This document shows positions 32,008 to 37,540 of a DNA stretch of 64,000 nucleotides, in pieces (within the stretch, counting starts at the first letter, position 1; every line of letters begins with the position of its first letter). The DNA is from the human T2T-CHM13v2.0 reference genome, Homo sapiens: assembly GCF_009914755.1 (NCBI RefSeq), contig NC_060928.1; one strand, given 5' to 3'. A model generated the notes under the pieces. That model was given only the letters and a program-made list of their open reading frames with translations. It was not told where the DNA came from and ran no database searches. The position numbers were made by a program, and so were the translations under genes.

Positions 32008-32122
32008 CACAGCTTGTATGGTTTCTCATCTATAGGAAACGGGTCTAATTCAACAGTTTCTTGCATAAGTTGCCATAGTGAAGATCTGAGATGGGCCTGC
32101 TGTTGGTGTTTCTCACACTAGC
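32008..32122 (-). other. MAPK10: MAPK10 (JNK3) 115-nt non-coding 5'UTR exon
   Basis: Minus strand reads ggctttgctttcag|GCTAGTGTGAGAAACACCAACAGCAGG...CCATACAAGCTGTG|gtgagt, with canonical acceptor and donor. The exon matches, from memory, the MAPK10 mRNA leader just upstream of the exon carrying the MSLHFLYYC start, which lies outside the window. Confidence 0.9.
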
Positions 32123-33519
32123 CTGAAAGCAAAGCCAAAAAACAGATGAGTTTGATTTTAAGATTTAAATTTGTATTTAGAAAACCAAAAAGCTGACATC
32201 AAAGACAGTTGGTTACTGGGTGGGTGAGTGTAGGCAGAGGAAAGAAAATATCTCAAGGTAATTATCTCTATTCATCATTTATTGCAAGCACAAGAACTTT
32301 GATGTTATAATACCAGAACAACTATTTTAATATCTGAGCATAAACTAAATTAGTAATTCTTATTTCAGTTAATATAATTAGTCTTGTGATATGAATTTGG
32401 TTTTCTAATACAAGGCACCCCACTCATCCTCAACTGGGACAGCTCCACTATTACATAGATTTACATATTCTGCTTTTCATACAAGATTTCATTGGAACAA
32501 TGGTTACATAGGTACCAATAAAGGAGGAGAATTTTGAAAACCTCTGAAGTATGCAAAAGAAAGTAAACCTAAGCTGGAGCTCATCTGAAGAGACCTGTAT
32601 TTATGTTCTTCTAGTTACTAACCTACTTTTTCACCATTATAGCCTGTTACTTCCCAACATTATATTAGACAAGATTCTTCAGAATATGTGGCAGTCTGCA
32701 ACATTCTACCCAATGTCAAACCATAAGTTTTTATTTCTAGTTTGGAAAATATGGTCATCATACCCAAAATAGGCCTCCTCTTTACCCCAAGTAAGAGTTT
32801 CTTTCCTGCCCAGGTGCTCACAATTACTCCTAGGACTACCACCCTCTCACTATCCCACCACCTCACCCCAACACCCCAGTGTAGCCCCATTGTCACCTAC
32901 CATCACTTCAGAGGAGGTAAATTCCTTTCTCCTCTGAATTTCTATTGCACTCATTATCAAAACACTAATATGGGCCCTTGATTTTATACCATCTTTATTG
33001 TTATTTAGCCTCATCTTCCCAAATGAGTATAGGTTCCAAATGGCAGAAACTGTGTTACAGTTTCCCAATTTTTTCTACCATAGCACTTAGCAGAGAACTC
33101 AGTACATGAGAGATATTCATTCAATGAATATTTGGTGTGTCCCTATTGTGTGCCAAACAGAAAAAGTCAGTCCCTGATGGGGATTAAACCTTAGTAGAGA
33201 ATACAGGTAATAGAAGAATAGGCAATTACTATATTATATAAATGCTGTGCTGGAGCTTCCGCCTACAAACACTGAATAAACATTGCCAAATAAACAGACC
33301 TAACCTAAGAGCTTTCCTTCACTATCAATGCTTTCAGATCCTATTTCCAATGTATAAGAAGAGGACAATTGCTTTAAGCAATCCATTTTCAGAAAGCACA
33401 TAGGGCACCCAGGCAGGTTAACACAGACAAACAGGAGTCAGTTTTATTTCTATGAAGACAAGTCACTAAGATGAATTTCTAGAACTTTAAAGTCACTGCT
33501 GTTTTTGTTTTTGTTTTTC

Positions 33520-33553
<34 letters not shown>

Positions 33554-34312
33554 TACAAACACAAGGTAGTGAAAATCCTGTTTATTACTGTGCAGGTCAC
33601 TGCAAATGCCCAATTGCCTTATAGGGAAGCTTTGCCTTAAACCTGCACACCATGCAGGGTTTTAGAGCAGCTGTGGTTAGGGATGCTTCTCAGGAGACTG
33701 TATTCATTTCTTTTTCCATTGAAAACTTCAATTTCCATTCCTACTAGCATTATTTCCATAAGCCTCAAGGATTTTACATCTCATAGTCACCAGAGATAAG
33801 AACTGTAAGAAAAGCCATAGTGGCTTGATATGGATCCAAAACATCAAATAAACTAGAAAATCCTTTACCAGAAATAGTATATGTGTGAGGTCTACTTTTT
33901 AAACCTAAAATGTTTATATTTAGTGATTTTCAATATTACCTGATGTCTCCTCTTAAGAGTTTCTACCAAGATTCACAATAAGAAATACAGCTTCTCCCTA
34001 TTAAATACAGAAAACAAAAGATATGCAAAACACAGGTTTTGTATTTTCCCCTTCTTTGCCTTGATCGGTTCATGAGGATAAAATGTACTCAAACTGAAAA
34101 ATCTTGAGTCAAAACCTTACAACTTCACTCTGCAAACACGTACAGGTTTCTGAAAAGATGGGCTCCAATTCTAAGTTACATTTTTTAAACAATCAATATG
34201 CAGCATGATCTTTTTATCTGAATCAGCAGTACAGTGTCTCATCTCAGGCTTATGTAATGCAATAAATATATCCAATATGCCAAAGAAGCAAATGGATTCT
34301 GTTCTTCTTTAC

Positions 34313-34530
34313 CAGTAAGCATCTCCCCTACTAGTCTATAGGCCCAACTTTTTCCACAAGTCCTTGGTCCTCAGAAGAAGGTGCAATAATAGATGCATGT
34401 GTGGTAGGAGGAAGGCACTCAGCAGTCCTGCAGCAAATAGAGCATTGTACTCCATTCTTGTCACTACTGGACACTTCCGTGCCTCTTTCTGCATGATTGT
34501 TGCAATGTCCAACCAAAAGCTTAAAAGAGA
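34313..34530 (-). other. Predicted 218-nt alternative 5'UTR exon
   Basis: Acceptor ccctttctatttcctcttacag|TCT and donor CTG|gtaaag; contains a 52-aa ORF at 34336-34494. Confidence 0.4.
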
Positions 34531-35738
34531 CTGTAAGAGGAAATAGAAAGGGCAATGAAGAAAGAATTTAAGACAACAATGTGTTTGCTTCTCATTCTAA
34601 TTGAAGGAAGTCTCTCTTGCTTTGAGTCCTTTATTCTGATAAGCAACCAAGCAATCATTCGATTTGAACACACCAATTCCACTGAAAGTCCTTTGGCTAC
34701 AAATGTGACCTGAGGCCAGAACTAGAGCATGAAGGGAGAACATCTATCCCCATATTTAACAAACAAGTAAATACCCAATTTGTCTTTAGCTTTTAGTATC
34801 AGTATAAAAAGAATTTATAACTAGGCTTACATCCAAAGAAACAGATTCATTTACATGAAACCACAATAAAACCTTAAAAATATATTTATGCCTTTAAACA
34901 TGGGAGGTTTTTCTAGATTACTTAGGTTGGGCAAATTTGTTTTGCTTATGATGTTCCTGTAGGATATCCTAACAAGGAAAATCTTATTAATTTTCCTATA
35001 AATTTAAAATATCTACATTTTATAGCATTGACAATAAATTATCAGTTCATTCTAACCTTAGAATATATAGACCATGTACTATGAAACCATTAAATACTAA
35101 TAGCTGCAGACATACCAGACAATGACAGCAAAAACACACTCAGCCCCTCTGGGATCTGTTCATAAACATCCCCTTCCAGCATGGCAAACACACTCCTCTC
35201 AACAGCAGATGCTGTTCTGGGGCTAGCAGGCAGGAAGCTGGAGGCAGCTGATTTTCCCACTCTACATATAATTTCTTACTGCCTCACTATCCAGAATCGT
35301 TTTACTGAAACTGTGAGGATTTTTTAAGAACAGGAGCCCCTCAAATTAAAGACACTTTGCAACAGCAGAGGAATGACAGGCAAATGAGGAAGCATGAAGA
35401 CTCTCTAATATTTAAGGTCACACCACCTTTGTCATCTGATTTTCTAGTCCCATTGTAGGGGAGAGAAAACCCAGTTTGCTCCACATAAGAAAATAAGCTA
35501 ATCCAATACTTTATGTCAATTTTAAGAGTGTGATCAAGGTAGAGAAGGAAATACATACCAGAGGCAGCCAAACCGCTACATCCAAAGCATCCAGCCCCTA
35601 AAATCTAATGGTTCTGAAGTGGAGTCAGAAGCTTGTGATATACTTATATATTTATTTGTTATATATTTGTAACATATATGCTCACCTAAAGTAGAAAATT
35701 CACAGAAGCTTCTCTGAGAGAAATGGTCCTTACTGCAA

Positions 35739-36053
35739 CTATTTTAAATATGTTGATAAGCATTCTGTGTTATCTTCCAGGGTCCGACAACTAGCCGATG
35801 AGGGATAGAAGGAGATATTGGATGTTGTGCTGGCAATGCCTGGTGCACTTACACTCGTTTTCCTTCCACCTGAACTGTAGTCTATCCCATATGACTTAGC
35901 CTGCTTCCTTGCAGTTTGTTCATAAAAGTTATCATCAACATGGCCAGAAGCAGGCAGGGCTGCTGTACAGACACTGTCAGGCTCTGCACCAAAGGCAGCC
36001 CATGTAAACAACCTTGTGATTGCTTCAGAGCCTACTGCTGTGGCATAAGCCAT
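35739..36053 (-). CDS. Candidate 104-aa uORF/microprotein inside a predicted 360-nt cassette exon (35734-36093)
   Basis: ORF MAYATAVGSEAITR...STYLK with Kozak agaATGG. Flanked by acceptor tctctgcttttacccccttaaacag| and donor GCA|gtaagg. Not recognisably repeat-derived; no known homolog recognised. Confidence 0.25.
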   Translation of the reverse strand: MAYATAVGSEAITRLFTWAAFGAEPDSVCTAALPASGHVDDNFYEQTARKQAKSYGIDYSSGGRKTSVSAPGIASTTSNISFYPSSASCRTLEDNTECLSTYLK

Positions 36054-36425
36054 TCTTTTTCTGTGGCTAAATTGCAGTACCCTGGGAAGTTATCTGTTTA
36101 AGGGGGTAAAAGCAGAGACTAGGTCTCTAGATTTAAATGTTTGGGGAGGGTGAGAAAAATATATGGATAGATAGTTTTCTTGTAATATCTATAGCCTGAT
36201 TTACTTACAGATTTTCCAGTAAATTACATTTATTTTGTTGAAGGCACAAATACATAGATTCTAACAAATATACTGCCATACTTATTTCTGATTTTTTTTT
36301 CAAAAGAGCTCTGACATTTGCAGGGGACACAGTATCCCAGCACAGAATACCTGGGAATCTTGCCATGAAAAAAAGAAAGCTGACTGCTGTGACTAGGAGA
36401 TCACTTTCTTAAAGGGACCCCTTAC

Positions 36426-36518
36426 CTATTTGACTGCAGTGCCAATGTTTCCTCTTATCTCTAACCTGACCCCTGTTCTGTGTTCCTCTCCCCGGCTCAG
36501 ATTTAGCCTAGAGTTGCT
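36426..36518 (-). other. Predicted 93-nt alternative 5'UTR exon
   Basis: Acceptor gttactcttgcag|AGC and donor TAG|gtaagg. Confidence 0.3.
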
Positions 36519-36741
36519 CTGCAAGAGTAACGCCAATAGTTTTATATCTAATATATATATAAATACTGTTCCTTAGTAAAATACATCTTAAAATATTTAA
36601 ATTATACTTCTCACAAAAGTAAACATAAATACATACTAAAAGACATTATTTTTAATGTTTTATGGAACCCATCACATTTTTCAGATATGGAACTAAGGTC
36701 AGCACTTCTAACAAGCACAGCTGTTTGGTGTTTTTTTTTTC

Positions 36742-36807
<66 letters not shown>

Positions 36808-36818
36808 CTCTCTCTCTC
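36742..36818 (+). repeat. (CT)n(GT)n(CT)n compound microsatellite in MAPK10 intron
   Basis: About 11 CT units followed by about 21 GT units. Confidence 0.95.
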
Positions 36819-37131
36819 CCTTCCCTTCTGTAGCCCTGCATTGGTCTAAAAACCCCTGGTCACAATAAGAATGCTCCCTCCCTCCCTCTGCTACCCCTCA
36901 CTCCAAATGGAAAGGTTTCAACACGCCCAAGTCTGGAAAGAGATGTTCTGCACAGAGGGAAAAACTGGTAGCTTCTTGCTTCAAAGCTAGTTCACTTGAT
37001 TAACCTGCTTTCCACCCCACCTCTCTCGTCTCTTCCATACTCCCTCTCCCGCCCCACCAGGAGCAATCAATAGACATCACCCCACCCTCCAAAAACAGGT
37101 TAGAACCCAGAACGAGCAAAGAGCCACCTAC

Positions 37132-37540
37132 CATTCCGTGCCTGAGAACTACGATCCTGATCCGGCAGTGTTTGCCCCAGAAATCCTCCCTACTTGTTTT
37201 TCATTAACCACATTCCAGACTAACATGGAAGAGATTCTTTGGAGATATGGAGATTGTTTAAAATTAACGATGGACAGGTGATTTCCAAGAAAACCCAATC
37301 TTAAACTCACTCAAGCCCCTAGGAATTGAGGGGTGAGGACAAAAAAGGAAATTTGTAAAAATGAAAAAAGAAAAGAAAAAGGTAAGCATATAGCAAGCAC
37401 CACCCACCCCCATAAAAATAAAAAGTGAAGGGGAGGTTAAAGAAAATAGAAGAAGAGTGGCTTGCTGAATCACCCTCTTTCACTGCCTGGAAACCATTGT
37501 GCAGCGTGATGCTGCCTGTACCATTGTGGAACCTACCAGA
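37132..37540 (-). other. MAPK10: MAPK10 alternative first exon (5'UTR); 3' boundary exact, TSS approximate
   Basis: Donor GGCACGGAATG|gtaggt at 37132/37131, 5.0 kb upstream of the 115-nt exon. Unique sequence immediately downstream of an X-box/CRE cluster. The 5' end cannot be determined from sequence. Confidence 0.7.

What the first reader, a model, noticed from the sequence alone, without database searches (positions are those of the whole stretch)
32008..37134. First exon ends on an ATG: a splice-selected menu of uORFs in the JNK3 leader
Seen: the first exon ends ...GGA-ATG|gtaggt, with an in-frame stop upstream, so this ATG's reading frame is set entirely by the exon it is spliced to. Joined to the 115-nt exon it gives MASVRNTNSRPISDLHYGNLCKKLLN* (26 aa, strong ggaATGG context). 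Joined to 36518 it gives MSNSRLNLSRGEEHRTGVRLEIRGNIGTAVK* (31 aa). Joined to 36093 it gives MITSQGTAI* (9 aa). Joined to 34530 it gives a 65-aa hydrophobic peptide. Inference: promoter choice plus cassette splicing in this 5-kb intron could tune uORF length, reinitiation efficiency and micropeptide output. Transcripts from a distal promoter would lack this ATG. Only the 37132 to 32122 junction is well supported.
Basis: partly seen in the sequence, partly recalled or inferred. Interest (0 to 1): 0.7.

Follow-up and report, generated by a model that had tools for sequence, protein, structure and literature searches.

The report
Junction-spanning uORF in JNK3 leader
The first exon of the main human JNK3 (MAPK10) transcript really does end on an ATG that starts a short upstream reading frame across the splice junction, and mouse brain data suggest it is translated, but the proposed menu of alternative spliced versions has no support, so this is an ordinary regulatory leader.

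Summary
The sequence facts are correct. Exon 1 (37527..37132, minus strand) ends CACGGAATG|GTAGGT. Joined to exon 2 (32122..32008), the ATG opens a 26-codon uORF in a strong context.

This ATG is the 8th of 11 upstream ATGs in a 517-nt leader. That count is near the 8.9 expected from composition. The uORF stops 43 nt before the weak-context main ATG, which I located in exon 3 of the same assembly.

A mouse hippocampal Ribo-seq table lists an ATG uORF on 5 of 5 listed Mapk10 transcripts. Its offsets to the later landmarks match human exactly, at +9 GTG, +115 GTG and +124 main ATG. The exon-terminal ATG is therefore conserved, by inference from coordinates, and ribosome-occupied.

The "menu" is not supported. 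RefSeq shows no exon in the intron. The other three peptides are what random AG sites give.

One new point: the alternative upstream exon 48340..48187 feeds its own ATG into the same exon-2 frame.

Verdict: a new member of a known kind, of modest interest.

The parts
37132..37527 (-). Exon 1 of NM_138982.4 (396 nt, non-coding). It carries 8 ATGs, at 37524, 37497, 37413, 37389, 37226, 37213, 37204 and 37134.
   Evidence: Hub annotation; sequence and ATG list.
37132..37134 (-). Exon-terminal ATG, the start of uORF8. Context cacggaATGg once spliced to exon 2.
   Evidence: The mouse counterpart at transcript position 443 is inferred.
37126..37134 (-). Splice donor ATG|GTAGGT. It matches the MAG|GTRAGT consensus (recalled) at 7 of 9 positions, with T at -2 and G at +4 off consensus.
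   Evidence: Rough donor score 3.47, against 5.27 for the exon 2 donor.
37201..37203 (-). TGA, the nearest in-frame stop upstream of the terminal ATG.
32123..37131 (-). Intron 1 (5009 nt, 38% G+C). It holds the three proposed but unsupported acceptors at 36518, 36093 and 34530.
   Evidence: The hub's RefSeq table lists no exon here.
32008..32122 (-). Exon 2 (115 nt, non-coding). It starts GCTAGTGTGA and ends GCTGTG.
   Evidence: An exon of the same length, 115 nt, appears in the mouse block list.
32045..32122 (-). Exon-2 part of uORF8: 25 codons plus TAG. The other two frames of exon 2 stop after 2 and 0 codons.
32008..32066 (-). Window part of uORF10, whose ATG is at 32066-32064. It is 22 aa. 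Its TGA lies in exon 3 and overlaps the main ATG as ATGA.
32008..32029 (-). Window part of uORF11, whose ATG is at 32029-32027. It is 19 aa, out of frame, and ends 32 nt inside the coding sequence.
48187..48340 (-). Alternative internal upstream exon (154 nt) of other RefSeq transcripts. Its last ATG (48201-48199), joined to exon 2, reads MLLPK followed by ASVRNT...LLN, the same exon-2 frame as uORF8.
   Evidence: Hub annotation for the exon; for the splice sites and the reading. The junction to 32122 is assumed, not seen.
37599..37606 (-). Full palindromic CRE motif TGACGTCA (motif name recalled), 79 nt upstream of the annotated transcription start.

Best explanation
The ATG at 37134-37132 starts a translated upstream ORF (uORF8) in the leader of the MANE MAPK10/JNK3 mRNA. 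The ORF spans the exon 1-exon 2 junction.

Shown:
- The spliced leader is 517 nt long and has 11 uATGs.
- uORF8 has one of the strong contexts (G at -3, G at +4). It is 26 codons long and ends 43 nt before the main ATG.
- The main ATG has a weak context (T at -3, A at +4).
- uORF8 encloses the starts of uORF9 and uORF10. uORF10 and uORF11 overlap the main ATG out of frame.

Inferred mechanism:
- Scanning 40S subunits rarely reach the JNK3 start directly.
- Most that get past the early short uORFs initiate at uORF8 and terminate in exon 2. They must then reinitiate within 43 nt, which is inefficient.
- uORF8 is therefore mainly a constitutive brake on JNK3 synthesis from this leader. It may also expose the mRNA to nonsense-mediated decay.
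- The ATG lying on the exon edge has no demonstrated special role. It only means that the ORF body is exon 2.
- The peptide is probably not the functional product.
For: Sequence:
- Exon 3, found in the same assembly, places the main ATG 6 nt into the exon, at mRNA position 518 in context gtatttATGa. It gives the 43-nt spacing and the two overlapping uORFs.

Mouse:
- The block list of ENSMUST00000170792 ends ...170,72,115,445 (supplement of PMC4568590).
- The RibORF table of PMC13396407 (supplement file 2) lists ATG uORF 443:518 on 4 transcripts and 382:457 on a fifth. All are flagged representative.
- The same table lists a GTG candidate at +9, which matches human codon 4 (GTG). File 7 lists a GTG extension at 558, which is +115 and matches the last 3 nt of human exon 2.
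- Subtracting 1395 nt, the recalled length of the 464-aa coding sequence plus stop, from the extension's end at 1962 places the main ATG at 567. That is +124, as in human.
- That paper's listing criteria were at least 30 nt, at least 11 reads and RibORF probability above 0.3.
- PMC13526858 (one passage read) names Mapk10 among the top 20 genes whose upstream translon tracks coding-sequence translation in mouse hippocampus.

General:
- PMC5961209 (abstract from the search listing, passages read) reports that main-protein translation falls with the number of leader exon junctions and of uORFs. Its section heading states that expression is lowest for genes with both.
Against: - No human ribosome data were seen. 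MAPK10 does not occur in the 5 held supplement files of PMC10032668, a study of 7,264 catalogued human sORFs. It also does not occur in the main text of a human cortex microprotein atlas.
- The mouse call uses a lax cut-off (0.3), and its change with neuronal activity is not significant (log2FC 0.73, adjusted P 0.53).
- Mouse conservation is inferred from coordinates only. Agreement between two species at three bases is weak evidence of selection.
- Seven ATGs lie upstream of uORF8, so the flux that reaches it is unknown. One of them, at 37497, has a strong context.
- The uATG count is at the chance level, as expected of a leader not shaped by selection on uATGs.
- No measurement links uORF8 to JNK3 output.
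Confidence: 0.6

Rival explanations
1. Incidental uATG. The ATG is one of many chance ATGs in a long, AT-rich neuronal leader. Ribosomes translate it because they translate any well-placed AUG, and it has no selected regulatory role. JNK3 output from this leader is set by the sum of all uATGs, or by other routes.
For: - The leader has 11 ATGs against 8.9 expected, so uATGs are not depleted.
- The leader folds no better than shuffles (z = -0.91).
- Peptide length differs between species, 24 aa in mouse and 26 aa in human.
- The uORF is absent from the conserved-sORF tables that list four other MAPK10 ORFs.
- Translation in mouse slices is not activity-dependent.
- Exon-terminal ATGs are expected in about 4% of exons (recalled composition).
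Against: - All offsets of the architecture are the same in mouse (+9, +115, +124).
- Its context is among the strongest in the leader.
- The alternative upstream exon also feeds an ATG into the same exon-2 frame. In shuffles each exon does so 24% and 21% of the time, so the joint chance is about 5%, judged post hoc.
Confidence: 0.28
2. Donor 37132 is spliced to several cassette exons in intron 1 (36518, 36093, 34530), and this gives a regulated menu of uORFs of different lengths.
For: - The three sites carry acceptor-like sequence. They rank 12, 5 and 1 of 371 AG sites in my rough score, where the real acceptor ranks 2.
- 36518 has a strong donor 93 nt downstream, at 36426, which ranks 2 of 296 GT sites.
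Against: - RefSeq lists no exon in the intron (hub table).
- 5 of 5 listed mouse transcripts share one junction.
- The sites were chosen for looking like acceptors.
- 36093 and 34530 lack a good donor. Their best donors within 30-400 nt rank 15 and 17 of 296.
- ORF lengths match the chance distribution.
- My splice scores rest on recalled consensus frequencies, not on a trained model.
Confidence: 0.05
3. The 26-aa product MASVRN...KKLLN is a functional micropeptide.
For: - The frame is translated in mouse brain.
- Two alternative upstream exons feed the same frame.
Against: - The stop lies 2 codons earlier in mouse.
- It is not in the conserved-sORF tables.
- It is not in the 5 held supplement files of the study of 7,264 catalogued human sORFs, PMC10032668.
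- No peptide evidence was found.
Confidence: 0.04

Closest known systems
mRNAs with both leader exon-exon junctions and uORFs ("class i" of Lim et al. 2018, PMC5961209)
   Same: The leader has two exon junctions before the start codon and many uORFs. The paper's section heading states that protein expression is lowest for genes with both. Its abstract says the number of leader junctions and of uORFs each correlates inversely with translation.
   Different: That work is a genome-wide correlation. It does not describe this gene or an ATG on the exon edge; only the abstract and passages were read.
ATF4/ATF5-type delayed reinitiation leaders (recalled from the literature, no call)
   Same: There are several uORFs. 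The last ones (uORF10 and uORF11) overlap the main start out of frame. An upstream short uORF is followed by a short spacer before the main start.
   Different: There are eleven uATGs rather than two uORFs. No response to eIF2-alpha phosphorylation has been shown. The Mapk10 uORF was not significantly changed by neuronal activity in the one dataset seen.
Leaders whose uORF content changes with promoter or 5' splicing, such as thrombopoietin and MDM2 (recalled, no call)
   Same: The choice of upstream exon changes which ATG opens the uORF. Exon 1 gives M+ASV... and exon 48340..48187 gives MLLPK+ASV....
   Different: Here both upstream exons open the same exon-2 frame, so the switch changes the start context and 4 residues, not the presence of the uORF. 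No effect on expression is known.

Membership tests
Translated upstream ORF (uORF) | An AUG in the mature mRNA upstream of the main start codon | tested here: met
   The ATG is at mRNA 394 and the main ATG at mRNA 518.
Translated upstream ORF (uORF) | An in-frame stop before or overlapping the main coding sequence, out of frame with it | tested here: met
   The TAG ends at mRNA 474, 43 nt before the main ATG. The uORF is in frame 0 and the coding sequence in frame 1.
Translated upstream ORF (uORF) | Ribosome occupancy with reading-frame signal | tested here: inconclusive
   The mouse orthologous position is listed as a representative RibORF ATG uORF, at a cut-off of 0.3 and at least 11 reads. 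No human data were seen. I saw the table only, not the read profile.
Translated upstream ORF (uORF) | A measurable effect on translation of the main ORF | not testable with these tools
   This needs reporters or genome edits.
Splice-switched uORF (alternative 5' UTR splicing that changes the uORF) | At least two documented junctions from the same donor or onto the same acceptor | tested here: not met
   For donor 37132, RefSeq shows only the junction to 32122 (hub table), and 5 of 5 mouse transcripts share it. For acceptor 32122, a second upstream exon exists (48187-48340, hub table), but I did not see its junction.
Conserved-peptide uORF or micropeptide | Amino-acid-level conservation | tested here: inconclusive
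   Length differs, 24 aa in mouse against 26 aa in human. The uORF is absent from the conserved-sORF tables of PMC4568590; file 1 was cut when stored, but its MAPK10 rows were present. No alignment was possible because no other vertebrate genome is held.
ATF4-like delayed-reinitiation leader | A last uORF that overlaps the main start out of frame | tested here: met
   uORF10 ends in a TGA that overlaps the ATG. uORF11 ends 32 nt inside the coding sequence.
ATF4-like delayed-reinitiation leader | Main-ORF translation induced when eIF2-alpha is phosphorylated | not tested
   No data were seen for MAPK10.

The most novel reading that the evidence does not exclude
uORF8 acts as a gate that chooses between the two in-frame JNK3 starts.

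- After terminating in exon 2, a 40S subunit has only 43 nt to become competent before Met1, whose context is weak (gtatttATGa). It has 157 nt before Met39, whose context has A at -3 (tacaacATGa).
- Reinitiating ribosomes would therefore favour the form without the N-terminal 38 residues. Low ternary-complex levels during the integrated stress response would favour it further.
- As I recall from the literature, that N-terminal extension is the JNK3-specific segment used for scaffold binding.
- Both alternative upstream exons feed an ATG into the same exon-2 frame, and exon 2 closes the other two frames at once. That would fit selection for this gate.
Probability: 0.1. Interest if true: 0.55.

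Novelty: new member of a known kind. Interest (0 to 1): 0.27.

Why it matters
JNK3 is the neuron-enriched stress kinase studied in neurodegeneration (recalled), and control of its protein level matters. If the reading here is right, the main human transcript carries a crowded leader of 517 nt and 11 uATGs ahead of a weak main start. The best-placed uORF in that leader spans the first splice junction and is probably translated in mouse brain.

That gives a concrete and cheap reporter experiment on JNK3 translational control. It also raises a testable idea about the choice between the long and short N-termini.

It does not reveal a new kind of mechanism. uORFs that cross leader junctions, and leaders that change with upstream-exon choice, are both well known.

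Tried and rejected
- Literature on a MAPK10/JNK3 uORF or leader. "MAPK10"+"uORF" found 5 papers. "MAPK10"+"upstream open reading" found 3 papers. The phrases "JNK3 promoter", "Mapk10 promoter", "JNK3 5 UTR" and "JNK3 translation" found 4 papers, all on promoter methylation or transcription. None describes this uORF. One paper names Mapk10 in a list.
- Supplements without MAPK10 in the held text: PMC13526858, PMC10032668 and PMC10591829.
- The human-brain Ribo-seq study is held only as a preprint. Those supplements may hold the decisive human evidence.
- One five-term literature search found nothing, probably because "5 UTR" does not match the printed form.
- Of the 93 Mapk10 rows in the mouse uORF table I saw only a sample. 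Many of them lie on ENSMUST00000086854.10, inside what is coding sequence on other transcripts.
- Rfam scan of 31000-49000: no family at gathering score.
- Leader folding: no more stable than shuffles.
- My first guess for exon 4 was wrong. The 120-nt block of ENST00000505356 is a different terminal exon. Exon 4 was then found in a wider fetch.
- Cross-species alignment was not possible, because no other vertebrate genome is held.
- My splice-site scores use position frequencies recalled from memory and are only rough.

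
Full report
**1. The observation**

On the minus strand, exon 1 of NM_138982.4 (37527..37132) ends ...CACGGAATG and the intron begins GTAGGT. Exon 2 (32122..32008) follows the acceptor TTGCTTTCAG and begins GCTAGTGTGA.

The spliced reading from the terminal ATG is MASVRNTNSRPISDLHYGNLCKKLLN, 26 aa. The TAG ends at 32045. The nearest upstream in-frame stop is TGA at 37203. 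The context is G at -3 and G at +4.

The three other peptides in the finding also reproduce exactly when the ATG is joined to 36518, 36093 or 34530 and read on through genomic DNA. All stated sequence facts are therefore correct.

**2. The whole leader**

The window's own assembly is held. I fetched the region predicted from the hg19 block list of ENST00000505356, which is printed in a supplement of PMC4568590.

- Exon 3 (72 nt) starts at window coordinate -128117. It reads GTATTT ATG AGC ..., and its translation agrees with the 22-residue ORF printed in that table.
- Exon 4 (170 nt) starts at window coordinate -163043. It carries the second in-frame Met, Met39.

The leader is 517 nt long and has 11 uATGs. 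In mRNA positions these are:

| uATG position | Context | ORF |
|---|---|---|
| 4 | 3 nt from the annotated cap | 14 codons |
| 31 | strong | 5 codons |
| 115, 139 | weak | 49 and 41 codons |
| 302, 315, 324 | T, G and T at -3; no G at +4 | 25, 7 and 4 codons |
| 394 (uORF8) | strong | 26 codons, ends at 474 |
| 443 | strong | 8 codons, inside uORF8 |
| 453 (uORF10) | weak | 22 codons; its TGA overlaps the main start as ATGA |
| 490 (uORF11) | weak | 19 codons; ends 32 nt inside the coding sequence |

The main ATG, at 518, has a weak context (gtatttATGa). Met39, at 632, has A at -3.

The ATG count is 11, against 8.9 +/- 2.7 in shuffles. The leader's folding energy is unremarkable, z = -0.91.

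**3. Mouse evidence**

The same supplement gives the block list of mouse ENSMUST00000170792 as ...170,72,115,445, with 4949 nt between the last two blocks. Mouse therefore has the same 115-nt exon 2 and 72-nt exon 3, and an intron 1 of similar size (5009 nt in human).

The supplement tables of PMC13396407 come from mouse hippocampal slice cultures analysed with RibORF. ORFs had to be at least 30 nt with at least 11 reads and probability above 0.3. They list:

- An ATG uORF at 443:518 on four transcripts and at 382:457 on a fifth, flagged representative.
- Candidates sharing the same stop: GTG at 452, and GTG at 368 and CTG at 344.
- In another table, a GTG extension at 558:1962. Subtracting 1395 nt, the recalled length of the 464-aa coding sequence plus stop, places the main ATG at 567.

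The offsets from the uORF ATG are +9 (GTG), +115 (GTG) and +124 (main ATG). In human they are the same. Codon 4 of uORF8 is GTG. The last three bases of exon 2 are GTG, 115 nt after the terminal ATG. The main ATG is 124 nt after it.

With exon 2 at 115 nt, the mouse ATG must be the last three bases of exon 1. This agrees with the 445-nt block. It is an inference from coordinates, and I saw no mouse sequence.

The mouse uORF is 75 nt, which is 24 aa plus a stop. Its stop is therefore two codons earlier than in human. Its change with neuronal activity is not significant (log2FC 0.73, adjusted P 0.53).

A second paper, PMC13526858 (one passage read), names Mapk10 among the top 20 hippocampal genes whose upstream translon correlates with the coding sequence. 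Its held supplements do not contain the name.

**4. The "menu"**

Over all 371 AG sites scored in intron 1, the ORF opened by the terminal ATG has a median of 13 codons and a mean of 19.2. 30% are at least 26 codons, 22% at least 31 and 3.8% at least 65. The four quoted lengths are unexceptional.

In a rough acceptor score built from recalled consensus frequencies:

- 34530 ranks 1 of 371, the true acceptor ranks 2, 36093 ranks 5 and 36518 ranks 12.
- Only 36518 has a good donor behind it, at 36426, which ranks 2 of 296 GT sites and makes a 93-nt pseudoexon ending TAG|GTAAGG.
- The best donors for 36093 and 34530 rank 15 and 17.

The hub's RefSeq table shows no exon in the intron, and 5 of 5 listed mouse transcripts share one junction. 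I therefore treat the menu as unsupported. It is not disproved, because long-read data were not available.

**5.

The other annotated upstream exon, 48340..48187, is an internal exon with a good acceptor and the donor AAG|GTAAAT. If it is joined to exon 2, its last ATG (48201) reads MLLPK followed by ASVRNT...LLN. That is the same exon-2 frame as uORF8.

Exon 2 closes the other two frames after 2 and 0 codons. Shuffled versions of exon 1 and of the upstream exon feed an ATG into that frame in 24% and 21% of trials. The joint chance is therefore about 5%, and the test is post hoc. I did not see the 48187-to-32122 junction itself.

**6. Mechanism**

The anatomy is shown. The rest is inferred from the established scanning and reinitiation model.

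- A strong-context uORF8 that ends 43 nt before a weak main start should reduce initiation at Met1.
- It also shields uATGs 443 and 453.
- The two overlapping uORFs add further repression.

A genome-wide study reports that translation falls with the number of leader junctions and of uORFs. Its section heading states that expression is lowest for genes with both (PMC5961209; abstract from the search listing and passages read).

The bolder reading is that the short 43-nt spacer, against 157 nt to Met39, biases reinitiation towards the N-terminally short JNK3, especially under stress. I give this about 10%.

**7. Novelty**

No paper in the searched library describes this uORF individually. It appears only as rows in a bulk mouse table.

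Junction-spanning uORFs, and leaders whose uORFs depend on upstream-exon choice, are known kinds. The exon-terminal position of the ATG is expected in a few percent of exons (recalled donor composition) and has no demonstrated consequence here.

Noticed in passing
window 37599-37606 (minus strand): A full palindromic CRE motif, TGACGTCA, lies 79 nt upstream of the annotated start of exon 1. The surrounding 500 nt are not a CpG island (G+C 0.51, CpG observed/expected 0.44) and no TATA box was found.
   Followed up: partly
window 32008-32010 (minus strand): Exon 2 ends on GTG, in frame with the main ATG and three codons upstream of it. The mouse RibORF table lists a GTG "extension" at the matching position.
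   Followed up: partly
window 32113-32122 (minus strand): Exon 2 opens GCTAGTGTGA. Any ORF entering in the two other frames stops after 0 or 2 codons, and only the uORF8 frame stays open, for 25 codons.
   Followed up: partly
G000 chr4:89523812-89523883 (window -128117, exon 3): The stop codon of uORF10 (ATG at window 32066) is a TGA that overlaps the main start as ATGA. The main ATG has T at -3 and A at +4, a weak context.
   Followed up: yes
window 36763-36805 and 33522-33563: Intron 1 carries a (TG)n run and a (CA)n run on the plus strand, so they are complementary in the pre-mRNA. They lie 3.2 kb apart with up to 29 nt of perfect pairing and enclose all three proposed acceptors. A (CT)n run lies beside the first run. 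Pairing could loop out that part of the intron, but this is untested.
   Followed up: no
window 37532 and 37620 (minus strand): Two acceptor-like sites (pyrimidine tract plus TAG|G or TAG|A) lie 5 and 93 nt upstream of the annotated start of exon 1, with rough scores 7.8 and 10.1. Exon 1 might also be usable as an internal exon by distal-promoter transcripts. RefSeq shows no such exon.
   Followed up: no
window 36426-36518 (minus strand): A 93-nt pseudoexon has the acceptor CTCTTGCAG|AGC and the donor TAG|GTAAGG, which ranks 2 of 296 GT sites in the intron. Its last codon in the uORF frame is the stop.
   Followed up: partly
G000 chr4:89493922-89494041 (outside the window): The 120-nt last block of ENST00000505356 is an AT-rich alternative terminal exon with stops in all frames. 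It is not part of coding exon 4. The 93-nt exon before it puts a stop directly after the 22 residues of exon 3.
   Followed up: partly
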